Shown here: positions 1 through 35,654 of the stretch, in pieces | How the letters are laid out: every line of letters begins with the position of its first letter | Position numbering within the stretch: the stretch's first letter is position 1 | Virus genome (UHGV): UHGV-0232315 | DNA length: 35,654 nucleotides | DNA from: a virus | Reading direction: 5' to 3' (one strand) | Program-made: the position numbers and the translations under genes | Notes under the pieces: model-generated | Seen by the model: only the letters and a program-made list of their open reading frames with translations | Told to the model about the DNA's origin: nothing | The model's database searches: none

Positions 1-60
1 CAAAAATCAGAACCCACGAATACAACCGCTCAATGGATGTCATCAGTTGAGGTGACTTTT

Positions 61-941: not shown

Positions 942-943
942 CA

Positions 944-1796: not shown

Positions 1797-1815
1797 GGCG
1801 TGGCGGGGATACGAG
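1797..1815. other. Possible cos (cohesive end) site
   Basis: GGCGTGGCGGGGATACGAG: first 13 nt match the P2/186 19-nt cohesive-end sequence as I recall it (GGCG[A/T]GGCGGGGAAAGCA..); lies in a 423-bp intergenic region next to a CATGCA-gg-TGCATG dyad (about 1758-1771). Confidence 0.35.
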
Positions 1816-1948: not shown

Positions 1949-4285
1949 ATGATTGAAGAGGTAGTTATTGACAAGGTAGGCTCATATAATGGCCCTACGC
2001 AGCTTTTACATGGACTTTCTAAATTTAACTATTTATATGGAGCTAATGGTGCAGGTAAAACAACTATAAGTAAAATTATTAATGACCCTGAACAATATCC
2101 AACATGTCCGATTAAATGGAAAAATAATATATCTTTAATAAGCTACGTATATAATAAAGATTTTGTTGAAAGAAATTTTAGTCAAGATAAAATTAAAGGT
2201 GTATTTACCCTTGGTAGCGATCTTAAGGAGGATGAAGAGAAACTAATATCTCTTAAAGAAGAAAAAAATAAGCTAATGGAATCTATTATAGCAAAGGGAA
2301 AGTTAATAGATGGTGGTGATAATGAATTAGGCGTTATTAAAAAAATCGAAGACCATGAAAAATCTTTTAAAGATTCATGTTGGAAGCAAAAAGTAAAACA
2401 TGACAATGTGTTCTCAAAGGCTTTTGAGGGATTAAGGAATAGTAGTGAAAAATTTAAAGCCAGAGTGTTGGCTGAGTATGAAAATAATACATCAGAAGTT
2501 TGCTCAATAGCAGAGTTAATTGAGAAAGCAAAAATTGTTTTTTCTACTGAATTGACATCACATGTATCAATTACAATTCCATCCTTCAATGGGATAGATG
2601 ATATTTTGAGTAGGGAAATTTGGAGTGAGCGTATTCTAGGGAAAAAAGACGTTAGTGTTTCAGACTTAATTACAATGCTCAATAACAGTGATTGGGTTAA
2701 GGAGGGTTTAACATATTTCAGTAAATCTAATCCCAAGTGCCCATTCTGCCAGCAGGATGTAAATGATAATATATTTGATAATCTTTCATCATATTTTGAT
2801 AAAACATATGAGTTAAAAAAAAGAGAAATCGATGCATTGGTTTTACAATATGAATATCAACTTAATAATATCTTGAAGGCGATAGATGATATAAGGGCGA
2901 TTAAATCTCCATTCATAAATTATGAAGTGTTTGAGGATAAGGCTAAGATAGTATTATCTGAATTAAACAAGAATTTTGAATTGGCAAAAAATAAACGCAA
3001 TTTTTTAAGTGAATCAGTTCATTTTAGTGACTTAAGTGAAGTTGTTGATGATTTTATTTCTTTTTTGAATGATTCAAATCTATTGATAGATAATAATAAC
3101 AAAATATATAGTAATAGAAAGGTAGAGGCTAGTAATCTTTCTAAGCAGATATGGGCATATATCGTAAAGGTGGAGTTAAAGTCTGAAATAACTTCTTACC
3201 GTAGCAAATCTGATAAATTTAATAGGACGTTACAAGGACTTAAATCTGGGATAGAAGAAGACAAAAAGAAGTTAATGTTAAATACTTCGGCTATTGAGGC
3301 AATTGAGTCTAATAAAACCAGTACTCTTCCAACTATTACAAAAATTAACAAGATTCTGGACTCTTATGGCTTCAAAAATTTTTACTTAAAACCCTCCGAA
3401 GATAAAAAGCATTATATGATAGTAAGAGATAGTGGAGATAATGCTCGTACAACCCTTAGTGAGGGAGAAAAGACATTTATCACTTTTTTGTACTTTTATA
3501 GCCTTGTTAGAGGGAGTGATAATGCATCAGGTGTTTTAGATGATCGTGTTGTAGTATTTGATGATCCAATTTCAAGTTTAGATAGTGATATTCTGTTTAT
3601 TGTAAGTTCGTTGATTAAAGATTTAATGGAGGATGTTCGTAAGGATGAAGGAAATATTAAGCAAATTATATTCCTTACTCATAATATTTATTTTCATAAA
3701 GAGTTGACTTTTAATACCAAAAGATCCGGTAATCAAGCAATGAAAGAGGAGACTTTTTGGATTGTAAGGAAAAAAGGGAAGGTTTCATATCTTGAAAAGT
3801 GCGAATCAAACCCAATAAAAACGTCTTATGATTTGCTCTGGTGCGAATTGAGAAGAACAGACATTAATAATAATACTATACAAAATACAATGCGAAGGAT
3901 TTTGGAGAATTACTTTAAGATATTAGGTGGGATGGATATTAGGAAGCTTGAGTGTCATTTTTATGGTGATGAAAAAATCATATTTAAATCTTTAGTGTCA
4001 TGGATTAATGATGGTTCCCATTTTGCAGGTGATGATCTTTATATGAATTTAGATACGGAGTCTGTGCAAAAATATTTAATTGTTTTTCAGAAGATATTTG
4101 AATGTAGTGAGCATACTGCCCATTACAAAATGATGATGGGTGAGTTTTATAAACCGTTAAATGAGTCACTTCATCTACAAGATGAGTTTGATATAGATGA
4201 TAGTGCGAATGATGAGTATGCTTCGTCAAAAATTGAGATAAAAGATGGAATAAACACATCTCTACATAGCAACACATATTTGTAA
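1949..4285 (+). CDS. ABC-type (AAA_13-like) ATPase with coiled-coil CxxC hook; RloC/PrrC-like candidate anticodon nuclease
   Basis: Walker A GANGAGKT (aa 32-39), Walker B/D-loop VVVFDDPISSLD, internal CPFC motif between Walker motifs, C-terminal R-x3-E..H arrangement (RRILEN ... H); very AT-rich relative to phage backbone; GAGG RBS. Confidence 0.55.
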   Translation: MIEEVVIDKVGSYNGPTQLLHGLSKFNYLYGANGAGKTTISKIINDPEQYPTCPIKWKNNISLISYVYNKDFVERNFSQDKIKGVFTLGSDLKEDEEKLISLKEEKNKLMESIIAKGKLIDGGDNELGVIKKIEDHEKSFKDSCWKQKVKHDNVFSKAFEGLRNSSEKFKARVLAEYENNTSEVCSIAELIEKAKIVFSTELTSHVSITIPSFNGIDDILSREIWSERILGKKDVSVSDLITMLNNSDWVKEGLTYFSKSNPKCPFCQQDVNDNIFDNLSSYFDKTYELKKREIDALVLQYEYQLNNILKAIDDIRAIKSPFINYEVFEDKAKIVLSELNKNFELAKNKRNFLSESVHFSDLSEVVDDFISFLNDSNLLIDNNNKIYSNRKVEASNLSKQIWAYIVKVELKSEITSYRSKSDKFNRTLQGLKSGIEEDKKKLMLNTSAIEAIESNKTSTLPTITKINKILDSYGFKNFYLKPSEDKKHYMIVRDSGDNARTTLSEGEKTFITFLYFYSLVRGSDNASGVLDDRVVVFDDPISSLDSDILFIVSSLIKDLMEDVRKDEGNIKQIIFLTHNIYFHKELTFNTKRSGNQAMKEETFWIVRKKGKVSYLEKCESNPIKTSYDLLWCELRRTDINNNTIQNTMRRILENYFKILGGMDIRKLECHFYGDEKIIFKSLVSWINDGSHFAGDDLYMNLDTESVQKYLIVFQKIFECSEHTAHYKMMMGEFYKPLNESLHLQDEFDIDDSANDEYASSKIEIKDGINTSLHSNTYL

Positions 4286-5363: not shown

Positions 5364-7129
5364 CAAAAAATCTCCACAATATTGCTGGTATTGGCGGACT
5401 CGCCCTGCAGCGGTTCGTTAAACAGTGCGTGCATCGTTGCCCAGGCCAGATCGGCGTGGCTGGCTTCTTCGCTGCGGCTGGCTTCATAGGTTGGGCGGTT
5501 GCCACTGGCGGTGGTTGCGCGACGGATTGCCATAAATGACTGCGCAATGTCGGTGTGCCCGGCGTCAAACTCCAGACGGCGGTGGCTGATAATGTCGTAG
5601 GCCTTGAGTACCAGGGCGTTTTTAACGTTGGGGTTGTAGACAAACTCCCGGACGGCAGGAAAGAACGCTTTCACGTTCTCGTAAACCCCGTGACCAACGC
5701 CGGTTGAGTCGATACCGATATAAGTCACGTTGTACTGCTCGGTAAGTTTTTTGATGGCGTCAGCCTGGGCGCGGAAGTCCATCCCGCGCCACTGGTGACG
5801 CTCAAGAATGCGGAACTTACCACCCGGCACGGCTGGCGGTGCCACCACCACGCATCCGGCGCTGTCGCCGTTTTGCGTACCTTTTGCCGGGTCATAACCG
5901 ATCCACACTTCGCGCCAGCCAAACGGGCGCAGCGCCAGTGCATGAAAGTCGGTCCAGATTTCCCAGCTGTCTACCATGCACGCCTGCAGCTCGCTGAGAG
6001 GGAACACGGACGCGAGATCGTCCACAAACTCGCACATCAGCAGGTTCTGGTATTCGTCCGGGCTGTACTCCATGCGCAACTGGTCAAGGTCGAACAGGTT
6101 ACAGCCGCCGCGCACCGCATCTTCCACGGTGACTATCTGGCGGTATTGCCCGTCTGCGCACAGCAGGCCGGGGGCCAGATTTCTGTGGGACAGGTCGATG
6201 TCCACCTTATCGGCTTTGTTGCGCCCACGGTTGAACAGCGCACCGGACCAGAACGGATAAGCACTGTGTGTCAGACTGGATGGCGTGGAAAAATAGGTTT
6301 GTCGCCATTTTTTGTGAATAGCCATACCGGAAGCCACTTTGCGCAGCTCCTGGAATTTCGGTATCCAGAAATATTCATCCAGATACAGGTTGCCGTGGTA
6401 ACTCTGGGCCGTGCGGGCATTGGTGCCGAGGAAGTAAAGCGTGGCCCCGTTAGGAAGCACCATCGGATCGCCTTTCAGCTCCACCTCGACTTCTTTGGCG
6501 AAGTCGATGATGTACTGCTTAAAGACGTGGGCCTGTGCCTTACTGGCGGAAAGGAAAATCTGGTTACGTCCGGTAAGCAGAGCGTCAATCAGGGCTTCAC
6601 GGGCAAAGTAAAAGGTCGCGCCGATCTGGCGTGATTTCAGCAGGTTGCGGATGCGGTTGGTTTTTCCGGCTTCCCACCAGTGGCGCTGGTAGTTGAACAT
6701 GGAGGAATGGAAGATTTCTTCCAGCTTCTCAATCTGTTCATCGGTGAAAACATTCTTTTCCGGCTGACGGCGCGGGCCTTTGTTGCGGTTGGCGACGTTA
6801 GGGTTTAAGTCGGCTTCGTTGCCGCCATTGTTAAACTTGCCGATGCGCGCGTGGCGCTCCGACTGGCGCGCCAGCAGGTCAATCTCTTTGAAATCTTTCC
6901 CTTCTTTGTGCTCCTTCATAATGAGCTGGCAGTAGCGTGCGGCGGTGGTGAGCTGCATCTGATCCAGCGGCCCATAGTCACCCCACTTGTCGCGTTTTTT
7001 CCAGCTATGAACGGTTGCAACTTTCTCGCCCAGCATTTCAGCAATGCGGGCGACGCGGTATCCCTGAAAGTACAGCAGCATGGCCTGCCGACGGGGATCG
7101 AGATCTGCGGGTGTCAGTGTGGTGTTCAT
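5363..7129 (-). CDS. P: Terminase large (ATPase) subunit (P2 gpP-like)
   Basis: 588-aa product upstream of Q in the divergent P2 arrangement; ATG 7129. Confidence 0.9.
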   Translation of the reverse strand: MNTTLTPADLDPRRQAMLLYFQGYRVARIAEMLGEKVATVHSWKKRDKWGDYGPLDQMQLTTAARYCQLIMKEHKEGKDFKEIDLLARQSERHARIGKFNNGGNEADLNPNVANRNKGPRRQPEKNVFTDEQIEKLEEIFHSSMFNYQRHWWEAGKTNRIRNLLKSRQIGATFYFAREALIDALLTGRNQIFLSASKAQAHVFKQYIIDFAKEVEVELKGDPMVLPNGATLYFLGTNARTAQSYHGNLYLDEYFWIPKFQELRKVASGMAIHKKWRQTYFSTPSSLTHSAYPFWSGALFNRGRNKADKVDIDLSHRNLAPGLLCADGQYRQIVTVEDAVRGGCNLFDLDQLRMEYSPDEYQNLLMCEFVDDLASVFPLSELQACMVDSWEIWTDFHALALRPFGWREVWIGYDPAKGTQNGDSAGCVVVAPPAVPGGKFRILERHQWRGMDFRAQADAIKKLTEQYNVTYIGIDSTGVGHGVYENVKAFFPAVREFVYNPNVKNALVLKAYDIISHRRLEFDAGHTDIAQSFMAIRRATTASGNRPTYEASRSEEASHADLAWATMHALFNEPLQGESANTSNIVEIF

Positions 7130-7175
7130 GGCACAAACCTACAGCCTTGAATGAAGGCTTTCCCCGCCTGCGGTT

Positions 7176-7193
7176 TGTGTGGTTGTCGGTACA
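7176..7193. promoter_or_regulatory. Ogr/B-type late-promoter activator site (TGT-N12-ACA) in the P/O divergent promoter region
   Basis: TGTgtggttgtcggtACA; centre is 87 bp from the O ATG and 55 bp from the P ATG; an imperfect second dyad TGTttcactgcccccATC lies at 7206-7223. Confidence 0.55.
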
Positions 7194-7271
7194 AATACCG
7201 CGCATTGTTTCACTGCCCCCATCACCGCAACCATAAGGCTCCAGTAAGTTTTTTCTAACGGAGCACGGCTC

Positions 7272-8105
7272 ATGACAGTGAAAGCAAAGCGTTTTCGCAT
7301 CGGGGTGGAAGGTGCCACCACCGATGGACGCGAAATCCAGCGTGAATGGCTGGAACAGATGGCAGCCAGCTACAACCCGGCGGTGTATACCGCGCTGATT
7401 AACCTTGAGCACATCAAGTCTTATCTGCCGGACAGCACCTTTAACCGCTACGGCAAGGTGACGGCGCTGTTTGCTGAAGAAATTACGGAAGGTCCGCTGG
7501 CAGGCAAGATGGCATTGTATGCCGACGTTGAGCCAACGGAGTCCCTGGTGGAACTGGTGAAAAAAGGCCAGAAATTATTCACCTCTATGGAAGTCAGCCC
7601 GAAGTTTGCTGATACGGGCAAAGCCTACCTGGTCGGCCTGGCTGCCACTGATGATCCAGCCAGTCTGGGTACGGAAATGCTGACATTCAGCGCCAGTGCA
7701 GCCCATAACCCGCTGGCAAACCGCAAACAGAATCCTGCCAATCTCTTTACCGCTGCAGAGGAAACGGTGATCGAACTGGAAGAAATCCAGGATGACAAAC
7801 CGTCCCTGTTTGCCCGTGTCACGGCGCTGTTCACCAAAAAAGAGCAGTCCGATGATGCCCGGTTCTCTGATGTGCATAAGGCCGTGGAACTGGTCGCTAC
7901 CGAGCAGCAGAACCTGAGTACGCGCACCGAAAAATCCCTGTCTGAGCAGGAAGAACGCCTGTCTGAGCTGGAGACTGCCCTGCAGGCACAGCAGACCGCC
8001 TTTAATGAACTGGTGGACAAGCTGAGCCATGAAGACAGGCGCCAGGACTACCGCCAGCGTGCAACAGGCGGCAACGCCCCCGCTGACACTCTGACCAATT
8101 GCTGA
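7272..8105 (+). CDS. O: Capsid scaffolding protein (P2 gpO-like)
   Basis: 277 aa, position and sequence consistent with P2 O; ATG 7272. Confidence 0.9.
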   Translation: MTVKAKRFRIGVEGATTDGREIQREWLEQMAASYNPAVYTALINLEHIKSYLPDSTFNRYGKVTALFAEEITEGPLAGKMALYADVEPTESLVELVKKGQKLFTSMEVSPKFADTGKAYLVGLAATDDPASLGTEMLTFSASAAHNPLANRKQNPANLFTAAEETVIELEEIQDDKPSLFARVTALFTKKEQSDDARFSDVHKAVELVATEQQNLSTRTEKSLSEQEERLSELETALQAQQTAFNELVDKLSHEDRRQDYRQRATGGNAPADTLTNC

Positions 8106-8121
8106 TGGAGCACAAAACCTG

Positions 8122-9180
8122 ATGAAGAAGAATACCCGCTTTGCTTTTAACGCTTACCTGCAGCAGCTGGCGCGTCTGAACGGTGTGGCAGTTGAAGAAC
8201 TGTCCAGCAAGTTCACCGTGGAGCCGTCTGTACAGCAGACGCTGGAAGACCAGATCCAGCAGTCCGCCGCTTTCCTGACGCTGATTAACGTCGCGCCAGT
8301 GACTGAGCAGTCCGGTCAGCTGCTGGGGTTGGGAGTTGGCAGCACCATTGCCGGAACCACTGATACCACCGCGAAAGAGCGTGAACCTGTCGATCCGACG
8401 CTGATGGTCGATGTGGAATACAAATGCGAGCAGACCAACTTTGACACGGTACTGACCTACGCGAAGCTGGACCTGTGGGCGAAGTTTCAGGATTTCCAGG
8501 TGCGTATCCGTGACGCCATCGTGAAACGTCAGGCACTGGACCGCATCATGATCGGCTTTAACGGCGTGAAGCGTGCGAAAACCTCCAACCGTAGCGAAAA
8601 CCCGCTGTTGCAAGATGTGAACAAAGGCTGGCTGCAGAAAATCCGTGAAGATGCACCGGATCACGTCATGGGTAGCACCACCACGGGCGGTGAAACCACA
8701 CCGGGTGCGGTGAAAGTCGGGAAAGGTGGCGAATATGCCAACCTGGACGCCGTGGTGATGGATGCCGTCAATGAGCTTATCGACGTGGTCTACCAGGACG
8801 ATGACGATCTGGTGGTGATTTGCGGTCGTGAACTGCTGTCTGACAAGTATTTCCCGCTGGTCAACAAAGAGCAGGAAAACAGTGAAAAACTGGCTGCCGA
8901 TATGATCATCAGTCAGAAACGCATGGGTGGCCTGCAGGCCGTGCGTGCGCCGTTCTTCCCGCCGAATGCACTGCTGATCACCCGTCTGGATAACCTGTCC
9001 ATCTACTGGCAGGAAGACACCCGCCGCCGCTCAGTTATCGACAACCCGAAACGTGACCGGATTGAAAACTTTGAATCCGTTAATGAAGCCTATGTGGTTG
9101 AGGACTACCGCTGCGCCGCACTGGTGGAAAACATCCAGATTGGCGATTTCAGCGCCGCTGCAGCAGAAGCCGGAGCGTAA
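8122..9180 (+). CDS. N: Major capsid protein (P2 gpN-like)
   Basis: 352 aa following O; ATG 8122. Confidence 0.9.
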   Translation: MKKNTRFAFNAYLQQLARLNGVAVEELSSKFTVEPSVQQTLEDQIQQSAAFLTLINVAPVTEQSGQLLGLGVGSTIAGTTDTTAKEREPVDPTLMVDVEYKCEQTNFDTVLTYAKLDLWAKFQDFQVRIRDAIVKRQALDRIMIGFNGVKRAKTSNRSENPLLQDVNKGWLQKIREDAPDHVMGSTTTGGETTPGAVKVGKGGEYANLDAVVMDAVNELIDVVYQDDDDLVVICGRELLSDKYFPLVNKEQENSEKLAADMIISQKRMGGLQAVRAPFFPPNALLITRLDNLSIYWQEDTRRRSVIDNPKRDRIENFESVNEAYVVEDYRCAALVENIQIGDFSAAAAEAGA

Positions 9181-9183
9181 CCC

Positions 9184-9834
9184 ATGAGCCTGAGTCCCGC
9201 ACGGCAGCATCGCCTGCGCGTTCAGGCTGAACAGGCCGCCCGCGAGGGCGGCAGTGTTCGCCACGCGTCGGGCTATGACCTGATGCTGCTGCAACTGGCG
9301 GAAGACCGCCGCCGTCTCAAGGGCGTTCAGTCCACGGTGAAAAAAGCGGAAATAAAGGTGGAGCTGCTGCCGAAGTACGCCGCTTGGGCAGAGGGCGTCC
9401 TGGCTGCCGGAGGCACTCAACAGGATGACGTACTGATGTACGTGATGCTGTGGCGCATTGATGCCGGAGATTATGCCGGGGCGCTGGAGATCGGGCGTCA
9501 TGCCCTGCGTCATGGCTGGGTGATGCCACTGGGTAACCGCAATGTGCAGACCGTGCTGGCAGAGGAAATGGCAGACGCCGCGCAGAGCGCAATGCTTGCC
9601 GCCACCGGCTTTGATGCCGATCTGTTGTTGCAGACGCTGGAGCTGATAGACGGTCTGGATATGCCGGACCAGTCACGGGCGCGTCTGCATAAAGCGATTG
9701 GCGCTGTCCTGAGTGAAAGCAATCCGGCTTCCGCCCTTAATCATCTCAACCATGCGTTACAGCTCGATCCCCGCTGTGGCGTGAAAAAAGACAAACAGCA
9801 GCTGGAGCGCAGACTGCGCAATGACAGCCGCTGA
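9184..9834 (+). CDS. M: Terminase small/endonuclease subunit (P2 gpM-like)
   Basis: 216 aa following N in conserved order; ATG 9184. Confidence 0.85.
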   Translation: MSLSPARQHRLRVQAEQAAREGGSVRHASGYDLMLLQLAEDRRRLKGVQSTVKKAEIKVELLPKYAAWAEGVLAAGGTQQDDVLMYVMLWRIDAGDYAGALEIGRHALRHGWVMPLGNRNVQTVLAEEMADAAQSAMLAATGFDADLLLQTLELIDGLDMPDQSRARLHKAIGAVLSESNPASALNHLNHALQLDPRCGVKKDKQQLERRLRNDSR

Positions 9835-9929
9835 CAGAACGTGCCCCCGCGCACGGGCGGCACGGGGTGGCGAAAGGCACTGCCACATCAAAACCCCGTC
9901 CACCGCCCTCTATTTCAGGAGAAAGCAGC

Positions 9930-13090: not shown

Positions 13091-13621
13091 TTACGCACTT
13101 AATAAACTTAAATAACTTTTTATGCTTTGGCAAAAAGGGAAAAGGTCTATTTTAATTTTCCAGTTTTTTTTGTTTTGAACCCCAGAAGCAATAATAGAAC
13201 CATCCCAATATTTTATTCCATTTTTGCCGGTCTTTTTTGTTAACTCAAAACTTAATGCGTGAATAATTTTATTGCAGCATTCGCGTATAGAACCTTTAAC
13301 ATGACCATCTATAACAAAAAGTATATTTTCATGTTCTTCAAATGCTTCTTTCTCAGGTGAGTAATCTGGGTTCCACTCATGTTCATTAGTGTCTTGGAGA
13401 ATTCGTAGTTTTGTACAAAGGCTAATAAGATTGTTGCTAATGGTATATTCCAACCATCCGTTGTACGATAACTCCTCCATTTCAAATTCAGTTACTATAG
13501 AACCATCATATACTTTCTGTGTGGAATATATACGCTGTAAATAAAATTCAGATGAACAGCATAATTGCTCAATTATTCTTGCGTGTTCTTCTATAGCGTA
13601 ATAATCAATTGGATGGCTCAT
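13091..13621 (-). CDS. Hypothetical protein encoded by an AT-rich island between S and V (P2 orf30 position)
   Basis: ORF 13091-13660 on the strand opposite to the tail operon; likely start ATG 13621 (MSHPIDYY...) with GAAAGG RBS; no motif I recognise. Confidence 0.6.
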   Translation of the reverse strand: MSHPIDYYAIEEHARIIEQLCCSSEFYLQRIYSTQKVYDGSIVTEFEMEELSYNGWLEYTISNNLISLCTKLRILQDTNEHEWNPDYSPEKEAFEEHENILFVIDGHVKGSIRECCNKIIHALSFELTKKTGKNGIKYWDGSIIASGVQNKKNWKIKIDLFPFCQSIKSYLSLLSA

Positions 13622-13652
13622 TCTTTTACCTTTCTTCGATTGGAATTGTATT

Positions 13653-13670
13653 TGTGTCATTTACCACACA
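13653..13670. promoter_or_regulatory. TGT-N12-ACA dyad upstream of V (candidate late promoter element)
   Basis: TGTgtcatttaccacACA; centre is only 55 bp from the V ATG and overlaps the 5' end of the antisense island ORF. Confidence 0.4.
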
Positions 13671-25507: not shown

Positions 25508-25726
25508 ATGATGATTTGCCCACTGTGTGGAAGTGCCGCCCATACTCGCAGCAGTTTTCAGGTATCTTCATTGACCAAAGAGCGTTACAACCAGTGCCAG
25601 AACATTAACTGCAGCCATACTTTTGTTACCCATGAAACTTTTGTTCGTTCGATTGCAACGCCAAAAGAGTCAAATCCGGTTCAGCCGCATCCAATGAAAT
25701 CAGGACAGGTAGCGCTCTCTCTTTGA
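25508..25726 (+). CDS. ogr: Ogr/B-family zinc-finger late transcription activator
   Basis: ORF 25475-25726; start placed at ATG 25508 (MMICPLCGSAAHTRSS...ERYNQCQNINCSHTF), Cys4 pattern and length (72 aa) as in P2 Ogr. Confidence 0.85.
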   Translation: MMICPLCGSAAHTRSSFQVSSLTKERYNQCQNINCSHTFVTHETFVRSIATPKESNPVQPHPMKSGQVALSL

Positions 25727-25804
25727 CGCTGCCGCCATTTTGTCGCCATCGTTAAAAAACAGTGCTTCTAACATCATGATCTTAAACAGCTTAAATTTCA
25801 GGCA

Positions 25805-25830
25805 ACAAAAAACCCATTTATGTAAACGGG
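25805..25830 (-). terminator. Weak hairpin plus T-run downstream of int (minus strand)
   Basis: On the minus strand cccgttt-acat-aaatggg is followed by TTTTTT; the stem is short with one mismatch. Confidence 0.3.
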
Positions 25831-25836
25831 TTAATG

Positions 25837-25870
25837 AAAACAATAAGTTAGATTAAAAACAATAAGTTAG
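25837..25870. repeat. Two 15-bp direct repeats (AAAACAATAAGTTAG) spaced 19 bp apart in the ogr-int intergenic (att-like) region
   Basis: Exact copies at 25837-25851 and 25856-25870; candidate integrase arm-type or accessory-factor binding sites. Confidence 0.5.
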
Positions 25871-25891
25871 GTTGGTGGTCAGTGGTGGTTA

Positions 25892-26944
25892 TTACGGGGT
25901 AATGCCAACCGCTGCCGCCACTTTGCCGCCACTTGGCAGCGTTGCCAGAGGATTGAAACGGAGCGCCGTTTCCAGATGATCCGGTGCCAGATGAGCGTAA
26001 CGCATAGTCATTTTTATATCGTGATGTCCGAGGATTTTTTGCAAAGCAAGGATATTTCCACCCGACATCATGAAATGTGCCGCAAACGTATGGCGCAGAA
26101 CGTGTGTCAGTTGACCGCGAGGGAGCACGATTGACGTTTTTTCCATCACGGATAAAAATTGAAAATAGCAGTCTGTGAAGAAATTGAACCCATCAAGCGC
26201 CATGATCTCTTCATAAAGCTCTTTACTGATAGGGATGCTTCTGTTTTTCTTCCCCTTCGTTCTTACAAAGGTAATTCGGTATTTAGTCACCTGTGATCGG
26301 GTAAGGTTTATTGCTTCTCGCCAGCGTGCGCCTGTGCTTAAGCATATCTTGACTACCAGTGCCAGAATTGGGTCCTGACGTTTGCAATCAGCCAGCAGTT
26401 CAACAATCTGCTCATGGGTAAGCCATGCCATCTCTTTTTCTGCGATGGTGAATTTTCGCATGTTCTCCAGTGGGTTTGGATACGACCATTCGCCCAGGCG
26501 GGATAGTTCGCTAAAAACACTACTTAGATAGCTTTGCTCCAGGTTAATGGTGACCGGGCTGGCTCCTTTCTTCCATTTCTCGCTGAAGTAGATCTCACCT
26601 GTCAGGCGTTTATCTCGATAGTGGGCAAACATTTTAGAGGTGAGATCGGTTGCAAGAGGATTGCCCAGAGCGTCAACCATCAGCAGCAATTTGTCATAGA
26701 CATGCTGCCCAGCAGTCAGAGATTTACCATGTAATTTGAACCATAGCTCAACCACGTCTTTCAGTGTTCGACGATCCACTGATTCACCTAGCCAAGGCTT
26801 TGCTTCGGTTTCTTCCATCGTGTGACGCTCAAAAGCCAGAGCTTCGCCTTTGGTGGCGAATTGTTTACGCACACGACGTCCACTACGTCCGGCGGGATAA
26901 CATTCGCACAGCCATTTTCCTGTGGTGAGTTTTCGTACTGCCAT
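25892..26944 (-). CDS. int: Tyrosine integrase
   Basis: 350 aa MAVRKLTTGKWLCECYPAGRSGRRVRKQF... with C-terminal ...HVLRHTFAAHFMMSGGNILALQKILGHHDIKMTMRYAHL catalytic region (R..H-x-x-R..Y). Confidence 0.9.
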   Translation of the reverse strand: MAVRKLTTGKWLCECYPAGRSGRRVRKQFATKGEALAFERHTMEETEAKPWLGESVDRRTLKDVVELWFKLHGKSLTAGQHVYDKLLLMVDALGNPLATDLTSKMFAHYRDKRLTGEIYFSEKWKKGASPVTINLEQSYLSSVFSELSRLGEWSYPNPLENMRKFTIAEKEMAWLTHEQIVELLADCKRQDPILALVVKICLSTGARWREAINLTRSQVTKYRITFVRTKGKKNRSIPISKELYEEIMALDGFNFFTDCYFQFLSVMEKTSIVLPRGQLTHVLRHTFAAHFMMSGGNILALQKILGHHDIKMTMRYAHLAPDHLETALRFNPLATLPSGGKVAAAVGITP

Positions 26945-27026: not shown

Positions 27027-28358
27027 TCATTGGAGCAAGAAAACTTTTAAGGTGTTTTTGAATATTCTAACAGGGTCTTCTACACCTGCATTTCCTTTTA
27101 AAATATGATAATCACTTATTTCAGCCCATCTGTTTTTTTCATCGTTTTCAGAAGGAAGTAAAGGAGAACCTTCTGGCATATATTTATAAGTTATACCAAA
27201 TAATGCATAATAGTAGATGTTGATGTTATATTGATCTGTCTGATATGGGAGTCTATTAACACCGAAGAAATTAATTATTAATTGTGCATCTATTTTATCT
27301 TCTACGTAGTTAAGGGCCAGTTCACGACCAAACGAATAAAGAATTACTGCAAGGGTTCGATAACAGCAATAGCCTGGTATAAATTTATTGCTGATTTCAT
27401 TTTGAGATAAAATTTGATAAATTTCTAGATATCTTGATAAGGTTTCAACTTCCCGTAGCGACAAGCCTTTTAGTTCGATAAATTTTTGAACTATATGAAT
27501 ACTACTTTCTCCAATTTCTTTTAGTCTTTCAGACTCGTTACATAGCATTCTAAAATGAGAGTTCGAAGCCAAAATTTTATCGTAATTGTTTTCAGTGAAA
27601 GTCACTGGCAGGCTGTAAGTGAATTTTATAAATTTATCAAGATATCTTTCTGAGTCAACACCTGCACCGTAAATATGATTTATTGATGCTTTCAATTGTG
27701 AGATGTTAGCAACTAACAAGAAGTTAAGATTTTCAGTGTCAAAAACATGTTTTATATTTTCGATGATAGAGATGGCAAAGCTTGGTTTACAACGGTCAAG
27801 TTCGTCAATGATAATTGTTATTTTATTTTCGCTAGTTAGTTCAGCAAGTACTTCCTTGAGAGCAAGCAAATGTTTCTTTGCTTCAATATGATCATCAAGC
27901 AGTGCTTCTACAGTACCATCTATAGCTGAGTTAGCCGCATCTTTAATAGCATCTTCGAATTCATCCGCAATATCATCTGCATTTTGTTTTAAAATCCACC
28001 CAGCGCCAGCTTTGAGTACAGTTTTAAGTCCAAATCTCAATGCTGGTAATGCCTTTGATATTAATTCCTTCTTTTCACTCTCTGGATATAATGCAACTAT
28101 TGCAGCCATTATAGTAAGTATGGGAGCATCATTATGATCTTCAGTAAATGCATCAATATATACTACTTTATGCCCAGATTCATTTTTTTCAATCAATGCC
28201 GCTAATTTTTTTGAAAATTCGGTTTTACCGGTACCCCAGTCCCCATCGATAACAATAGGGGATATTTTTAAGGGGGACTCGAGTAAGCTTATTATTTTTT
28301 CAGCAATGATTTTTCTATTATACTCATCTCTGTTTTCAAAAGTCATATCATTATTCAT
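27027..28358 (-). CDS. KAP-family P-loop NTPase
   Basis: Walker A GDWGTGKT (GxWGxGKT KAP signature) and Walker B IIIDELDRC; ORF-track start 28367 is TTG, I place the start at ATG 28358 after AAGG; AT-rich. Confidence 0.65.
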   Translation of the reverse strand: MNNDMTFENRDEYNRKIIAEKIISLLESPLKISPIVIDGDWGTGKTEFSKKLAALIEKNESGHKVVYIDAFTEDHNDAPILTIMAAIVALYPESEKKELISKALPALRFGLKTVLKAGAGWILKQNADDIADEFEDAIKDAANSAIDGTVEALLDDHIEAKKHLLALKEVLAELTSENKITIIIDELDRCKPSFAISIIENIKHVFDTENLNFLLVANISQLKASINHIYGAGVDSERYLDKFIKFTYSLPVTFTENNYDKILASNSHFRMLCNESERLKEIGESSIHIVQKFIELKGLSLREVETLSRYLEIYQILSQNEISNKFIPGYCCYRTLAVILYSFGRELALNYVEDKIDAQLIINFFGVNRLPYQTDQYNINIYYYALFGITYKYMPEGSPLLPSENDEKNRWAEISDYHILKGNAGVEDPVRIFKNTLKVFLLQ

Positions 28359-28369
28359 ATGAAGCAACC

Positions 28370-29142: not shown

Positions 29143-29267
29143 GGTCACTCCAAGTGAACTTTTACCTTGACGATTTCATGATGTGATCGTATGTTTGCAG
29201 TGTTCACATAATACAAACGATCAGTATTCATCCTGATTAATCATTGCTAAAAGAGGAATGTTGCATC
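29143..29267. promoter_or_regulatory. Lysis-lysogeny switch region (divergent pL/pR-type promoters and operators)
   Basis: Intergenic region between divergent cI and apl; dyads GTGAAC(29155-29160)/GTTCAC(29212-29217) and TGATCGT(29184-29190)/ACGATCA(29217-29223); two GATC sites. Confidence 0.5.
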
Positions 29268-29489
29268 ATGAGACCTAACATTTCAATCACTCTCATCACC
29301 CCCCACGTTACTATAGAAAGATATAGTGAACTCACTGGCTTATCTATCGACACAATTAACGACATGCTTGCAGATGGGCGTTTGCCTCGTCATCGCCTAC
29401 GTAAGGATAAAAAGCGTGAAAAAGTGATGATTAACATTGCTGCGATGACGATCGATGCCCTCTCTGATTGCAACGTGACTATCAACTAG
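29268..29489 (+). CDS. apl: Apl/Cox-type excisionase-repressor
   Basis: ORF 29244-29489; start placed at ATG 29268 after AGAGGA; small basic protein as the first gene of the rightward early operon. Confidence 0.65.
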   Translation: MRPNISITLITPHVTIERYSELTGLSIDTINDMLADGRLPRHRLRKDKKREKVMINIAAMTIDALSDCNVTIN

Positions 29490-31072: not shown

Positions 31073-31917
31073 GCACCATCCTGAAATGGGCGGGAAATAA
31101 AACGGCCATTATGGCAGAACTGAAAAAATACCTTCCTGCTGGCCCGCGACTGGTTGAACCTTTCGCGGGTTCCTGTGCAGTGATGATGGAGACGGATTAC
31201 CCCAGCTATCTGGTTGCGGATATTAATCCTGATTTAATCAACCTCTATAAAAAGGTTGCCGCTGATTGTGAATCGTTTATATCTCGCGCCAGAGTTTTAT
31301 TTGAGAACGCAAACAGGGAGATGGCTTATTACAACATAAGGCAGGAGTTTAATTACTCAACTGAAATTACTGATTTCATGAAAGCAGTATATTTCCTGTA
31401 TCTCAATCGTCACGGTTACCGTGGTTTATGTCGCTATAACAAGAGCGGGCATTTCAACATTCCCTACGGTAATTATAAAAATCCGTATTTCCCTGAAAAA
31501 GAAATTCGTGCATTTGCAGAAAAAGCCCAGCGGGCAACATTTATCTGCGCCAGCTTCGATGAAACGCTGGCAATGTTGCACGCGGGGGATGTTGTGTATT
31601 GCGATCCGCCTTATGACGGTACGTTTTCCGGCTATCACACTGACGGCTTCACTGAAGATGACCAGTATCACCTGGCATCCGTTCTTGAACATCGGTCATC
31701 AGAAGGACATCCGGTCATTGTTTCTAACAGTGACACATCCCTGATCCGTTCGCTGTATCGCAATTTCACTCACCACTACATCAAGGCAAAACGCAGCATT
31801 GGCGTGTCAGCTGGCGAGAGTAAATCTGCAACAGAAATCATTGCCACCAAATCAGCTGGGTGGTTTGGTGTCGATTTTGCCAGCGGCTCTGACCGTACCG
31901 TTGAGGTACGCGCATGA
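31069..31917 (+). CDS. dam: DNA N6-adenine methyltransferase (Dam/D12 class)
   Basis: ORF 31009-31917; ATG 31069 after GGAGGTG; N-terminal KWAGNK and catalytic DPPY ([10 protein letters not shown]) motifs. Confidence 0.85.
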
Positions 31918-32924
31918 ATGCTATCGATCCGCGTTGCTTTGCCTCAGGCACCATTAACGTCATCACTACTTCTGGTGGCAAAGATAGTCTCGCTCAATGG
32001 CTAAGAGCCATTGAAAACGATGTTCCGCATATTTCTGTATTTGCCGATACGGGTCATGAACATCCACAGACAATAGAATATCTGGATTATCTGGAATCAA
32101 AGCTGGGCAAGATTATTCGCGTCAAAGCGGATTTCACACGCCAGATAGAAGGGAAACGTAAATTCATTGCGGAAAAGTGGCCCATTTCTCTCGTTGAGGA
32201 ATGTGGTATGTCGACAGATGAGGCTGAGGAACGTATTTACCGGGCACTGGAAATCCTTAAACCAACCGGCGTTCCGTTTCTTGATTTGTGCATGTGGAAA
32301 GGTCGCTTCCCTTCAACAAAAGCTCGTTTCTGCACTTTTGAACTGAAACATGAACCAATACGTACACAGGTAATCGATCCAGCTCTGGATGAATACGATG
32401 AGGTAATCAGCTGGCAAGGAGTCCGGGGGCAGGAATCACCGGAACGTGCATTGTTGCCTGAGTGGGAGGACGATGCAGACAATACTCTGGGGCTGCATGT
32501 TTATCGTCCGATCCTTAATTGGCTGCATGAGGATGTGTTTGCTATTGCCAAACGTCATGGCATTAAGCCTAACCCCCTTTATATGCAGGGATGCAGTCGT
32601 GTCGGTTGTATGCCATGCATTCATGCTCGCAAGTCAGAACTTGGAGAGATTTTCCAACGCTGGCCAGAAGAAATCCGCCGAGTGGCTGAGTGGGAAAGAC
32701 TGGTTGCGGAATGTTCAAGACGTGGCAATTCAACGTTCTTTCCATCCACGCATGATCCGCGCCGTGCTGAAAAACGGATCGAAGTCATAACTGTTGATGC
32801 TTATGGTATTGAAACTTATCGGGACTGGGCCTTAACGACTCGGGGCGGTATGCAGTTTGACCTGCTGGCAGGCATGAATGATAAAGCGGTGTGCAGCAGT
32901 GTATATGCAGGAGTCTGTGAGTGA
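31914..32924 (+). CDS. PAPS-reductase/DndC-like PP-loop ATP pyrophosphatase family protein
   Basis: PP-loop TSGGKDS near the N-terminus, C-terminal Cys cluster [10 protein letters not shown]; ATGA overlap with the dam stop. Confidence 0.7.
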
Positions 32925-35362
32925 CAGAGATCAGCACAGGCCGTCTTGCCGATCCATTTGTCAGTGTAACTTCCGGTAGCATTGAGAATTCTGCCGGGGG
33001 TTATTCGTGGAATTTACCTAAGAAAGCCATTAACCCTTATCTGGACCCGGCGGAAGTTGCGCCGGTTTCTGCGCTTTCAAACCTGATCACTCTGTACGCT
33101 ACCGATAACGAGCAGGAACAACTGCGCCGCGAGGCACTGAGTGATCAGGTCTGGGAGCGTTATTTCTTTAATGAATCCCGTGATCCTGTCCAGCGCGAAA
33201 TGGAGCAGGATAAGCTCATTAGCCGGGCAAAGTTGGCGCATGAGCAGCAGCGTTTTAACCCGGACATGGTCATTCTGGCAGACGTCAGCGCCCAGCCCTC
33301 CCATATCAGCAAGCCGCTGATGCAACGTATTGAATACTTCAGCAGCCTGGGCAGGCCAAAGGCTTATTCCCGCTATTTACGTGAGACGATTAAGCCATGT
33401 CTGGAACGACTGGAGCATGTACGCGACAGCCAGCTATCTGCATCTTTTCGTTTTATGGCAAGCCATGTAGGGCTGGACGGCCTGCTGATTCTGCCTGAAA
33501 TGAGTCAGGATCAGGTGAAACGCCTGTCTACCCTTGTCGCTGCGCATATGAGCATGTGCCTTGATGCAGCTTGTGGTGATTTGTATGCCACCGATGACGT
33601 TAAGCCAGAAGAAATCCGCAATACATGGGAAAAGGTGGCAGCGGAAACCCTGCGTCTGGATGTCATCCCGCCTGCGTTTGAGCAACTCCGTCGGAAAAGA
33701 AACCGCCGTAAACCCGTGCCCTATGAACTCATTCCGGGTTCGCTGGCGCGTATGTTGTGCGCCGACTGGTGGTACCGGAAATTATGGAAAATGCGTTGCG
33801 AATGGCGGGAAGAGCAGTTGCGTGCTGTCTGCCTGGTCAGCAAAAAAGCATCTCCCTATGTCAGCTATGAAGCCGTGATGCATAAACGTGAGCAGCGCCG
33901 CAAGTCACTGGAGTTTTTCCGTTCTCATGAACTGGTGAACGAAGAGGGCGACACGCTGGATATGGAAGACGTGGTAAACGCCAGCAGCAGCAACCCGGCG
34001 CACCGCCGCAATGAGATGATGGCCTGTGTTAAAGGTCTGGAGCTTATCGCGGAAATGCGCGGTGACTGCGCCGTTTTCTACACCATTACCTGTCCGTCAC
34101 GTTTCCATTCTACGCTCAATAACGGCAGACCAAACCCAACCTGGACAAATGCGACGGTAAGACAAAGCAGCGATTATCTGGTCGGCATGTTTGCTGCATT
34201 TCGTAAGGCGATGCACAAAGCCGGGTTGCGCTGGTATGGCGTGCGGGTGGCTGAGCCGCATCATGACGGTACAGTTCACTGGCACCTGTTGTGTTTCATG
34301 CGCAAAAAAGACCGCCGCGCCATTACTGCATTGTTGCGTAAGTTTGCCATCCGTGAAGACCGCGAGGAACTGGGTAATAACACTGGTCCACGCTTTAAAT
34401 CTGAGCTGATAAACCCGCGCAAAGGAACGCCGACAAGCTACATCGCGAAATACATCAGTAAGAACATTGACGGGCGTGGTCTGGCTGGCGAGATCAGCAA
34501 GGAAACGGGTAAATCCCTGCGTGATAACGCTGAATACGTTAATGCCTGGGCGTCTCTGCATCGTGTACAGCAATTCCGCTTCTTTGGTATTCCGGGACGT
34601 CAGGCTTACCGTGAACTTCGCTTGCTGGCTGGTCAGGCGGCAAGGCAACAGGGTGACAAAAAAGCAGGTGCGCCGGTACTGGATAACCCGCGTCTTGATG
34701 CCATTCTGGCTGCTGCTGATGCTGGTTGTTTTGCCACCTACATCATGAAGCAGGGCGGCGTACTGGTTCCCCGCAAATATCACCTCATCAGAACCGCTTA
34801 TGAAATCAACGAAGAGCCAACCGCCTATGGCGATCACGGTATTCGTATTTATGGCATCTGGTCACCCATTGCAGAGGGCAAGATCTGCACTCATGCAGTG
34901 AAGTGGAAAATGGTTCGTAAGGCCGTTGACGTTCAGGAGGCGGCAGCCGACCAGGGCGCTTGCGCCCCTTGGACTCGTGGCAATAATTGTCCCCTTGCTG
35001 AAAATTTGCACCAACAAGGGAAAGACAAATCAGCTGATGGGGATACCAGGACGGACATTACCCACATGGATGACAATGAGTTGCACGATTACCTGCACAG
35101 TATGAGCAAAAAAGAGCGCCGGGAACTGGCTGCAAGGTTACGCCTGGTGAAACCGAAACGGCGTAAAGACTACAAACAGCGAATTACAGACCATCAGCGA
35201 CAGCAGCTCGTCTATGAACTGAAGTCCAGAGGATTTGATGGTAGCGAGAAAGAGGTCGATTTACTCCTTCGCGGCGGCAGTATTCCGTCAGGAGCAGGCC
35301 TGCGTATCTTCTATCGGAACCAGCGTTTGCGGGAAGATGATAAGTGGCGGAACCTGTATTAA
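32921..35362 (+). CDS. A: Replication initiation endonuclease (P2/186 gene A-like, rolling-circle HUH type)
   Basis: 813 aa; GTG start overlapping the upstream stop; HWHLLCF (HUH-type motif) and tyrosine pair YIAKYISK. Confidence 0.85.
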
Positions 35363-35515
35363 TTACGCGGGTTAACAATTCGTGCTCTTAATAATACCCG
35401 GTATATCAGGCTGATGAACGTAAAAAAACGTTTTACATCAGTAAGATTATTGTATACTGTGAATATAAACAGTGGTTATATATACAGTATTGCGTGTGGT
35501 GTCATAGGAGGAAAA

Positions 35516-35654
35516 ATGCAGGACTATTTTTTGGAGTCTTTGAAGCTCCAGCGCATTGATTTTTTTCTTAAGCTTGTCGCGGCTAGTGAGTGTAGTGATG
35601 AAGAGAAGGGGCTGGCTCTGCAGTGGGTTTCTGAACTAACAGATGAACTCATGG
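35516..35654 (+). CDS. Hypothetical protein, 3'-truncated by the window end
   Basis: AGGAGG RBS, ATG 35516, frame open to the last base (MQDYFLESLKLQRIDFFLKLVAASECSDEEKGLALQWVSELTDELM...). Confidence 0.5.
   Translation, partial: MQDYFLESLKLQRIDFFLKLVAASECSDEEKGLALQWVSELTDELM

What the first reader, a model, noticed from the sequence alone, without database searches (positions are those of the whole stretch)
25727..25891. ogr and int are separated by only 165 bp - genome is in episomal (attP-joined) order, with direct repeats in the att-like region
In an integrated P2-like prophage, int and ogr lie at opposite ends. Here they are adjacent, so the window represents a circular/virion-order genome (or a tandem or excised form), not a simple chromosomal prophage. 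The intergenic region holds two exact 15-bp direct repeats (AAAACAATAAGTTAG, 25837-25870) and a GGTGGTcaGTGGTGG element, candidate integrase arm or accessory-protein sites flanking the attP core.
Basis: partly seen in the sequence, partly recalled or inferred. Interest (0 to 1): 0.45.

Follow-up and report, generated by a model that had tools for sequence, protein, structure and literature searches.

The report
Ordinary P2/186-type phage attachment site
The 165-bp gap between ogr and int is the normal attachment site (attP) of a P2/186-like E. coli/Klebsiella phage caught as a closed circle; it targets the 3' end of the small-RNA gene rybB, an integration site already described, so the finding is correct but ordinary.

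Summary

The window is one exact unit of a circular P2/186-like genome. It does not start at cos, which lies near 1797. Joining its end to its start rebuilds an intact 62-aa gene.

Comparing attL, attR and the empty site places the core at 25799-25817. Crossover falls inside AACAAAAAACCCAT (25804-25817), which is the last 14 nt of the sRNA gene rybB, between rcdA and ybjL. Lysogens keep a full-length RybB.

Prophages at this site are already published: PhiECO1/2/3 (Nilsson 2011), Kpn38RybB (Hudson 2014) and E. coli hotspot #29 (Hochhauser 2023). About 1,160 of 5,426 complete E. coli genomes match this ogr-att region.

They are two pairs of TGYCGCCAY at 11-bp spacing (25730-25749 and 25913-25932, the second inside int), and they match the published 186-type consensus tgccGCCActt.

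The 15-bp repeats behave like two IHF sites: AAACAA-NNNN-TTR, with only the N positions varying among relatives. The GGTGG pair is a weak candidate for excisionase sites.

Verdict: a correct reading of a known, canonical system. Interest is low.

The parts
25508..25726 (+). ogr (late-gene activator, 72 aa). The mechanical ORF starts at GTG 25475.
   Evidence: Pfam Ogr_Delta at 6.7e-22. Gene calls of 72 aa in 100%-identical contigs and in E. coli prophages.
25730..25751 (+). P-arm Int arm-type sites P1 (TGCCGCCATTT) and P2 (TGTCGCCATCG), direct repeats 11 bp apart
   Evidence: They match the 186 arm-type consensus YAYCGCCAYTY (186 record) and the 186-type consensus tgccGCCActt (PMC3448106). TGYCGCCAY occurs 10 times in the window against 1.8 expected, and 4 of these form the two att pairs. 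The sites keep the same distance from the core in L023, ev129 and ev040, although the sequence between them and the core has diverged. Binding by Int is inferred.
25769..25781 (-). P-arm IHF-like site in reverse orientation (TAACATCATGATC against YAANNNNTTGATW, 2 mismatches)
   Evidence: The same columns hold a perfect reverse IHF consensus in L023 (TAAGTGATTGATT) and ev129 (TAATCTATTGATT). Phage 186 has an IHF footprint in the same position, left of its core. This site is weak in the window itself, and binding is inferred.
25799..25817 (.). attP core CAGGCAACAAAAAACCCAT. Crossover in E. coli must fall within AACAAAAAACCCAT (25804-25817), the last 14 nt of rybB.
   Evidence: This is the overlap between the matches to the two ends of the 4LV2017 prophage, and it equals that record's annotated attL and attR. 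Sequences compared: E. coli attB in K-12, attL in L006 and L008, attR in L028. RybB (Rfam RF00110) is full length at attB and at attR.
25801..25832 (-). Hairpin AACCCGUUUACAUAAAUGGGUU followed by a U-tract: candidate terminator of the int (lysogenic) transcript. Its 3' half-stem and U-tract are the core.
   Evidence: Terminator scan. Folding gives -9 kcal/mol with z = -1.9. In ev129 and ev040 the G.U pair becomes A-U and the stem is kept. The hairpin is weak and its function is inferred.
25837..25870 (+). The two exact 15-bp repeats, read as two IHF-consensus-like sites: H'1 at 25838-25850 and H'2 at 25857-25869 (AAACAATAAGTTA, 12 of 13 positions of WATCAANNNNTTR)
   Evidence: In 19 distinct att sequences aligned without gaps over this arm, AAACAA and TT are fixed in site 1, the R position holds in all haplotypes but one, and the four N positions vary (TAAG, CGAC, AAAC, TGAA, TGGC, TGAC, TTAC). 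Site 2 is a perfect AATCAATAAGTTA in several divergent relatives. The exact 15-mer duplication exists only in the window's own clade. The consensus alone carries no weight: 35 matches in the window against 32.8 expected.
25874..25888 (+). GGTGGTcaGTGGTGG: GGTGG twice, 10 bp apart; with AGTTAG at 25865 it forms a run of three rGT motifs 9-10 bp apart. Candidate sites for the Cox/Apl-like excisionase.
   Evidence: Only the GT dinucleotides at 25866, 25875 and 25885 are conserved across the three clades. Phage 186 has its five Apl sites in the equivalent place, between an IHF site and the int-side arm sites. No matching motif was found in the pR-pL switch region, so support is low.
25892..26944 (-). 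int, a 186-type tyrosine integrase (350 aa)
   Evidence: Pfam Int_N and Phage_integrase. 56% identical to 186 Int, including the N-terminal arm-binding domain. 39% identical to P2 Int.
25913..25934 (+). P'-arm Int arm-type sites P'1 and P'2 (TGCCGCCACTT twice, 11 bp apart), inside the last codons of int
   Evidence: Exact match to the 186-type consensus tgccGCCActt. Nearly invariant in the 19 distinct att sequences, while the int sequence just beyond them diverges. Pattern statistics.
29268..29489 (+). Cox/Apl-like excisionase and repressor (73 aa), the trans-acting directionality factor
   Evidence: PHROG phrog_575, 'Cox-like excisionase and repressor', at 9.2e-30 over its full length. Only weak similarity to 186 Apl, in the helix-turn-helix region. 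It is the first gene of the rightward operon opposite the 186-type cI.
1797..1815 (+). cos-like site GGCGTGGCGGGGATACGAG
   Evidence: The first 13 nt are identical to the annotated cos of phage 186. It shows that the window is not cos-delimited.
35516..35654 (+). 5' part of a 62-aa ORF that continues at window 1-50, marking the closure point of the circle
   Evidence: Joined end to start, the ORF is 62/62 aa identical to WP_001154434.1 of an E. coli prophage. The window end and start are contiguous in 4LV2017 at 9544/9545.

Best explanation
The interval is the attP of a complete P2/186-like temperate phage (Peduoviridae, Fels-2/'Felsduovirus'-like group) recorded as a closed circle. The window is one exact genome unit opened at an arbitrary point.

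Shown:
- The 19-bp core (25799-25817) is shared with attL and attR of integrated relatives.
- In E. coli the exchange happens within AACAAAAAACCCAT, the 3' end (terminator half-stem plus U-tract) of the sigma-E sRNA gene rybB, between rcdA and ybjL.
- The phage copy of these 14 nt rebuilds an unchanged, full-length rybB at attR.

Inferred, by homology with phage 186:
- The 186-type tyrosine integrase binds the core with its core-binding and catalytic domains.
- Its N-terminal domain binds two pairs of arm-type sites (TGYCGCCAY, 11 bp apart), one about 50 bp to the ogr side of the core and one about 95 bp to the int side.
- IHF bends the DNA at one reverse-oriented site on the ogr arm and at the one or two sites formed by the 15-bp repeats on the int arm. 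The bends let an Int molecule bridge an arm and the core.
- The Cox/Apl-like protein (29268-29489) probably binds direct repeats between the IHF sites and the int-side arm sites to drive excision. This is the weakest step.
- The same core sequence also serves, on the minus strand, as the 3' half of a hairpin-plus-U-tract that may terminate int transcription in both attP and attL.
For: Gene identities. Circular unit. cos lies elsewhere in the window.

The same phage is seen in both states. Joined-order contigs of 35.6 and 36.0 kb are 100% identical to the window over 10-13 kb. E. coli contigs encoding the identical Int protein have rcdA next to attL.

Core and attB. RybB is intact at attB and attR.

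In E. coli, 1161 of 5426 complete genomes match the ogr-att query. In 1115 of them one place covers at least 80% of the query, and in the listed rows the match stops at window 25817, as expected for attR.

Arm-type sites: the 186 record's consensus, the published 186-type consensus tgccGCCActt (PMC3448106), enrichment and pairing, conserved position and spacing, and 56% identity to 186 Int including the arm-binding N-terminus.

IHF-like sites: the substitution pattern, and the positions of the 186 footprints.

Excisionase gene.

Prior descriptions of this integration site: PMC10121019, PMC4048246, PMC3448106.
Against: No binding or cleavage was tested, so the exact cut positions inside the 14-bp block are unknown.

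The IHF consensus with one mismatch is no more frequent in the window than in shuffles (35 against 32.8). That assignment rests only on the pattern of conservation in 7 related haplotypes and on analogy with 186.

Two IHF sites 19 bp apart would overlap and could probably not both be occupied.

The ogr-arm IHF-like site has 2 mismatches in the window.

No motif shared between the int-side arm and the pR-pL switch region was found for the excisionase.

The int hairpin is weak: -9 kcal/mol, z = -1.9.

The P' arm sites lie in coding sequence, so part of their conservation may reflect the Int C-terminus.
Confidence: 0.9

Rival explanations
1. The window was cut from a bacterial chromosome that carries two tandem copies of the prophage at rybB. 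The ogr-attP-int junction would then be the joint between copy 1 and copy 2, not an episome.
For: Such tandem copies exist. In E. coli CFSAN061772 two tandem copies of a deleted relative share exactly this ogr-attP-int junction inside the chromosome. One other genome (H52) also shows the full joined match.
Against: Only 2 of 1161 matching E. coli genomes show it. A window cut from a tandem array would have to be exactly one unit long for its ends to rebuild an intact gene with no base missing or duplicated. The window holds no host sequence. Two independent metagenome contigs of genome length are 100% identical and in joined order.
Confidence: 0.05
2. The joined order is an assembly or extraction artefact: an integrated prophage was wrongly circularised through the short attL/attR repeat.
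For: attL and attR share 14-20 identical bases, and metagenome assemblers do output circular-looking contigs.
Against: A repeat of 14-20 bp is shorter than the k-mers assemblers normally use; this rests on general knowledge and was not tested here. The same P-core-P' junction appears in independent sources: the phage-lysate contig KP12_3, two metagenome assemblies, several IMG/VR contigs, and tandem chromosomal copies. The junction has the geometry expected of a real attP, with arm sites on both sides at conserved distances.
Confidence: 0.03
3. One reading: the 15-bp repeats and/or the GGTGG element are the integrase arm-type sites.
For: They are direct repeats next to int in an att region, the classic look of arm sites.
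Against: They lie on one side of the core only. In divergent relatives the two 15-mers share only the IHF-consensus positions, and the GGTGG sequence is not conserved. The Int N-terminal domain is close to that of 186, whose arm consensus YAYCGCCAYTY / tgccGCCActt is found instead at 25730-25751 and 25913-25934 on both arms.
Confidence: 0.07

Closest known systems
Prophages integrated at rybB: PhiECO1 (E. coli HS), PhiECO2 (ATCC 8739), PhiECO3 (CFT073), PhiSEN1 (Nilsson et al. 2011, PMC3448106); E. coli defence hotspot #29, 'Felsduovirus in rybB' (Hochhauser et al. 2023, PMC10121019); Kpn38RybB (Hudson et al. 2014, PMC4048246); Klebsiella phage 4LV2017 (KY271398)
   Same: Same integrase lineage, core sequence and host target. 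The ATCC 8739 prophage sits next to rcdA with the same P' arm. The annotated attL and attR of 4LV2017 equal window 25799-25817. Variable defence cargo sits in the same places.
   Different: Those are recorded in the integrated order (attL-int ... ogr-attR), whereas the window is the joined circle. The cargo genes differ: here a KAP NTPase lies between int and cI, and an AAA_13 ATPase lies between cos and Q.
Phage 186 attP / Int / IHF / Apl system (NC_001317 annotation; Cutts et al. 2020, PMC7498355)
   Same: Same layout: late activator gene, arm-type sites, IHF, core, IHF, excisionase sites, arm-type sites, int. Int is 56% identical. The arm-type consensus is the same. The phage also has a 186-type CI and CII and a Cox/Apl-like first gene of the lytic operon.
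   Different: The target is the sRNA gene rybB, not tRNA-Ile (ileY), and the identity with attB is 14-20 bp rather than 36 bp. There is no orf69 between the arm sites and int, and the P' arm sites lie inside the int coding sequence. The candidate int terminator overlaps the core on the int side, whereas the 186 record places its predicted lysogenic-operon terminator on the other side of the core. The excisionase is only weakly similar to Apl, and no TTGGCA-type Apl operators are seen.
Phage P2 attP / Int / Cox
   Same: Same gene order (D-ogr-attP-int) and the same logic: two direct arm repeats on each side of the core, IHF, and a Cox-type directionality factor (PMC3448106; PMC3936717). From my own recollection, not checked here, P2's main attB also lies at the 3' end of an sRNA gene (cyaR).
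   Different: Int is only 39% identical. The P2-type arm consensus tgTGGaCa and the cox-box TTAAA(G/C)NCA arrays are not what is found here. The immunity region is of 186 type (CI/CII), not P2 C.

Membership tests
attP of a heterobivalent tyrosine integrase (lambda/P2/186 type) | An adjacent tyrosine recombinase with an N-terminal arm-binding domain | tested here: met
   Pfam Int_N at 3e-32 and Phage_integrase at 7e-22. 56% identity to 186 Int over 334 aa, including the N-terminus.
attP of a heterobivalent tyrosine integrase (lambda/P2/186 type) | A short core identical in attP, attB, attL and attR, with the flanks exchanged | tested here: met
   The four sites were compared directly. attB is from K-12, attL from L006 and L008, attR from L028 and attP from the window. 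The shared block is AACAAAAAACCCAT, and the GC/AT dinucleotide to its left segregates as expected.
attP of a heterobivalent tyrosine integrase (lambda/P2/186 type) | Arm-type sites on both arms, different in sequence from the core | tested here: met
   Two pairs of TGYCGCCAY at 11-bp spacing lie on both sides of the core. They match the 186-type consensus and are conserved in position. This is met at the sequence level only.
attP of a heterobivalent tyrosine integrase (lambda/P2/186 type) | Physical binding of Int, IHF and the excisionase, and the strand-cleavage positions | not testable with these tools
   This needs footprinting, gel shifts or cleavage mapping.
attP of a heterobivalent tyrosine integrase (lambda/P2/186 type) | IHF sites between the arms and the core | tested here: inconclusive
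   The conservation pattern fits WATCAANNNNTTR at 25838-25850, 25857-25869 and, reversed, at 25769-25781. The consensus itself is not enriched in the window.
attP of a heterobivalent tyrosine integrase (lambda/P2/186 type) | Directionality-factor sites: direct repeats one helical turn apart, also present at the pR-pL switch | tested here: inconclusive
   rGT motifs lie at 25865, 25874 and 25884, spaced 9-10 bp. No matching array was seen in the switch region 29149-29268.
Episomal (circular, excised) form of a P2-like genome | ogr and int joined across an intact attP with no host DNA | tested here: met
   The same junction is present in KP12_3 and in metagenome contigs.
Episomal (circular, excised) form of a P2-like genome | The sequence is exactly one genome unit whose ends close on each other | tested here: met
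   The window end and start are contiguous in 4LV2017. The ORF spanning the ends is intact and 62/62 aa identical to a prophage gene. There is no terminal overlap.
Episomal (circular, excised) form of a P2-like genome | The source record is declared circular, or reads support closure | not testable with these tools
   The origin of the window is not given and its own record was not identified.
Virion-order (cos-delimited) linear genome | The sequence starts and ends at cos | tested here: not met
   The cos-like site is internal, at 1797-1815.
rybB-targeting P2-like prophages (hotspot #29 / PhiECO1 group) | The core equals the 3' end of rybB, and the prophage lies between rcdA and rybB-ybjL | tested here: met
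   K-12 annotation and Rfam RF00110. Lysogen flanks are rcdA and rybB-ybjL.

The most novel reading that the evidence does not exclude
In this clade a 19-bp unit has been duplicated or homogenised. This turned two dissimilar IHF-like sites into two identical 15-mers only 19 bp apart, too close for both to be occupied. The pair might work as alternative bend positions used differently in integration and excision. Alternatively, it might have become the binding array of another factor, such as the Cox/Apl-like protein, giving this lineage a directionality control that 186 lacks. A related point is that the 14-nt core doubles as the 3' half of two different terminators: rybB's at attB and attR, and int's at attP and attL.
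Probability: 0.1. Interest if true: 0.25.

Novelty: already known. Interest (0 to 1): 0.1.

Why it matters
It matters little beyond annotation. The result fixes the phage as a complete, circular, probably active E. coli/Klebsiella temperate phage. It gives base-level coordinates for its attP parts and names its chromosomal target, the 3' end of rybB. This is useful for delimiting prophages of this very common group, which about a fifth of complete E. coli genomes match, and for reading the defence cargo they carry. It opens no new question about site-specific recombination.

Tried and rejected
- **P2 cos search.** A search for the P2 cos sequence with up to 3 mismatches found nothing. A looser 186/P2 pattern then found the cos-like site at 1797.
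- **Terminal overlap.** No overlap of 10 nt or more, and no shared 12- or 15-mers between the two ends of the window. Circularity therefore had to be shown by comparison with relatives.
- **tRNA and Rfam scans of the window.** No tRNA, no tmRNA and no Rfam family at gathering score. The phage carries only the last 14 nt of rybB, so a tRNA-type att like that of 186 is ruled out.
- **IHF consensus as evidence on its own.** Rejected, because it is not enriched: 35 matches against 32.8 expected.
- **Excisionase sites.** I read the switch region by eye and compared it with the int-side arm, testing GTGG/CCAC, AGTnnn and GrTTAA motifs. None was shared convincingly. P2-type cox boxes (TTAAA...) on the ogr arm are not conserved in relatives, and P2 and 186 place their excisionase sites on the int side, so that idea was dropped.
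- **Pfam on the excisionase.** No hit. PHROGs identified it.
- **P2 attP sequence.** My first coordinates for the P2 record hit gene A instead.

Full report
**Observation**

The ogr ORF ends at 25726 and matches Pfam Ogr_Delta at 6.7e-22. The int ORF occupies 25892-26944 on the minus strand and matches Int_N and Phage_integrase. The gap between them is therefore 165 bp.

AAAACAATAAGTTAG occurs at 25837 and 25856 and nowhere else in the window. The longest exact direct repeat reached in 5000 shuffles of the interval was 12 nt, against 15 nt observed. The GGTGGTcaGTGGTGG element is at 25874-25888.

It matches at 20 of 22 positions, against at most 17 in 300 shuffles. Its second copy lies inside the 3' end of int.

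**What the window is**

The gene order is that of a complete P2/186-like phage:
- portal Q and terminase P on the minus strand, then the head, lysis and tail genes, D, and ogr;
- attP and int;
- a KAP NTPase, a 186-type CI, a Cox/Apl-like gene, CII, Fil, Dam and the replication gene A.

The nearest GenBank phages are Klebsiella phages KP12_3 and 4LV2017, at about 96% identity.

Against 4LV2017, window 33023-35654 aligns to 6912-9544 and window 1-292 aligns to 9545-9836. The two ends of the window are therefore neighbours in a relative. Joining end to start rebuilds a 62-aa ORF (35516-35654 plus 1-50) that is 62/62 aa identical to WP_001154434.1 of an E. coli prophage. There is no terminal overlap.

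A cos-like site, GGCGTGGCGGGGATACGAG, lies at 1797-1815. Its first 13 nt are identical to the annotated cos of phage 186.

The window is thus exactly one unit of a circle opened at an arbitrary place. It is not a cos-delimited virion molecule and not a simple prophage.

**The same phage in both states**

The Int protein of the window, residue for residue, is encoded on two genome-length metagenome contigs of 36,010 and 35,605 bp. On both, int and ogr are adjacent. The 10-13 kb held from them are 100% identical to the window.

The same protein is also encoded on E. coli contigs where int is followed by the TetR-family gene rcdA, then ybjJ, ybjI, ybjH, mdfA, ybjG and deoR. This is the integrated form.

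Among 5,426 complete E. coli genomes, 1,161 match the ogr-att query. In 1,115 of them one place covers at least 80% of the query, and in the listed rows the match stops at window 25817.

Only two genomes carry the full joined junction. In one of them, CFSAN061772, it is the joint between two tandem copies of a deleted relative. That is the only realistic rival origin for the window. The exact unit length of the window argues against it.

**Core and attB**

4LV2017 is deposited in prophage order with attL and attR annotated. Its right end matches the window up to 25817 and its left end matches from 25799. The core is therefore CAGGCAACAAAAAACCCAT, at 25799-25817.

| Site | Sequence |
|---|---|
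| attB (E. coli K-12, empty site) | ...gttttAGATAACAAAAAACCCATcaacc... |
| attL (E. coli) | rcdA...ttttAGATAACAAAAAACCCATttatg |
| attR (E. coli) | ...atttCAGGCAACAAAAAACCCATcaacc |

The exchange must therefore occur inside the 14-bp block AACAAAAAACCCAT (25804-25817).

In K-12 this block is the 3' end of the sRNA gene rybB, on the minus strand between rcdA and ybjL. Rfam RF00110 scores a full-length RybB (positions 1-79) both at the empty site and at attR of E. coli and K. pneumoniae lysogens. Integration therefore leaves rybB unchanged. The window itself holds no Rfam family at gathering score.

**Already described**

- Hochhauser et al. 2023 list E. coli hotspot #29 as occupied only by Felsduovirus prophages integrated within rybB, in 109 genomes, each carrying up to two defence systems (PMC10121019).
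- Hudson et al. 2014 describe the island Kpn38RybB (PMC4048246).
- Nilsson et al. 2011 list PhiECO1, PhiECO2 (the ATCC 8739 prophage ending at 3058101, the locus found), PhiECO3 and PhiSEN1 as sharing one integration site (PMC3448106).

**Anatomy of attP**

*Reference layout.* The phage 186 record annotates, in order: B (the ogr homologue), Int arm-type sites with consensus YAYCGCCAYTY, an IHF footprint, the core, a second IHF footprint, five Apl sites, more arm-type sites, and int. [quoted passage not shown]

*Arm-type sites.* The window has TGCCGCCATTT and TGTCGCCATCG at 25730-25751, and TGCCGCCACTT twice at 25913-25934. Each pair is 11 bp apart and all four sites are on the plus strand. TGYCGCCAY occurs 10 times in the window against 1.8 expected. 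Int is 56% identical to 186 Int, including the N-terminal arm-binding domain. These are the most likely arm-type sites.

*Conserved spacing.* I aligned 19 distinct att sequences: the window, KP12, 4LV2017, E. coli lysogens, IMG/VR contigs, and phages ev129 and ev040. No gaps are needed over the 145 bp of the int-side arm. No gaps are needed on the ogr side either, among the joined forms. This holds even though the 47 bp between the P sites and the core have diverged almost completely in L023, ev129 and ev040. Spacing is conserved where sequence is not.

*The 15-bp repeats.* In that alignment the first element reads AAACAA-NNNN-TTR. The four N positions vary (TAAG, CGAC, AAAC, TGAA, TGGC, TGAC, TTAC), while AAACAA and TT stay fixed and the R position holds in all haplotypes but one (T in L017). 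The second element is a perfect IHF consensus, AATCAATAAGTTA, in several divergent relatives.

The two elements are identical to each other only in the window's own clade. The exact 15-bp repeat is therefore a recent local duplication or homogenisation of two older IHF-like sites.

A reverse-oriented IHF-like site sits on the ogr arm at 25769-25781. It is perfect in L023 and ev129 and has 2 mismatches in the window.

The consensus alone proves nothing: 35 matches in the window against 32.8 expected. The argument rests on the substitution pattern and on the position of the 186 footprints.

*The GGTGG element.* It is not conserved as such. Only GT dinucleotides at 25866, 25875 and 25885, spaced 9-10 bp, persist across clades. 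Phage 186 has its Apl sites in this position, so these are candidate sites for the 73-aa Cox/Apl-like protein (phrog_575 at 9e-30). I found no matching array in the pR-pL region, so this remains a guess.

*Candidate terminator.* On the minus strand, AACCCGUUUACAUAAAUGGGUU followed by UUUUGUUGCC (25832 down to 25801) is a terminator-like hairpin downstream of int. It folds at -9 kcal/mol with z = -1.9. Its 3' half-stem and U-tract are the core. The same 14 nt therefore end rybB at attB and attR, and may end the int transcript at attP and attL.

**Verdict**

The site assignments need correcting, and the functional attP (about 25730-25934) extends past the flagged interval into int. This is a canonical 186-type attP of a common, previously described group of rybB-integrating prophages. 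It is already known and of low interest.

Noticed in passing
window 27027-28367 (-): A KAP-family P-loop NTPase (Pfam KAP_NTPase at 3.8e-51; PADLOC candidate defence family PDC-S20 at 1e-171) sits between int and cI in a 32-35% GC stretch. Relatives carry different genes at this spot: a 'chromosome segregation ATPase' in KP12, a small YdcA-family gene in ATCC 8739, and a hypothetical protein in 4LV2017. It is therefore a variable cargo slot next to attP.
   Followed up: partly
window 1949-4285 (+): A 778-aa AAA_13 ATPase (Pfam at 1e-163; PADLOC candidate PDC-S06 at 1e-266) lies in a 30% GC island between the cos-like site and portal gene Q. This matches the known defence-cargo position of P2-like phages.
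   Followed up: partly
window 384-953 (-) and 944-1525 (-): Two overlapping minus-strand genes lie between the DinI-like gene and cos. One has a weak GTP-binding-domain hit (phrog_289 at 7e-10). The other has weak ShosT/PsyrT-like hits (about 1e-8). They may form a two-gene toxin-type defence module.
   Followed up: partly
window 13091-13660 (-): A 189-aa protein of unknown function (phrog_18838, no Pfam hit) lies on the opposite strand in a 40% GC island inside the tail gene block. It looks like another moron slot.
   Followed up: no
window 31914-32924 (+): A PAPS-reductase-domain protein of 336 aa (Pfam at 5.7e-34; PADLOC hits to SspD, BrxP and DndC) lies between the Dam methylase and replication gene A. 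It may act in DNA modification or counter-defence.
   Followed up: no
window 1797-1815: A cos-like site, GGCGTGGCGGGGATACGAG, whose first 13 nt equal the annotated cos of phage 186. The window starts 1.8 kb to its left, inside a 62-aa ORF that is completed by the window's other end.
   Followed up: yes
L029 (E. coli CFSAN061772, NZ_CP042893, 2995732-3036152): Two tandem copies of a relative are annotated. Each lacks most tail genes (the tape-measure gene is annotated as a partial pseudogene) and they are joined by an ogr-attP-int junction inside the chromosome. This is either a real tandem defective lysogen or an assembly duplication.
   Followed up: partly
L032 and L033 (phages ESSI2_ev129 and ev040): These phages share the same core, hairpin and arm sites. 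The gene left of the P arm is annotated as a serine acetyltransferase or an HrpA-like helicase rather than ogr, so cargo is inserted between ogr and attP in that lineage.
   Followed up: no
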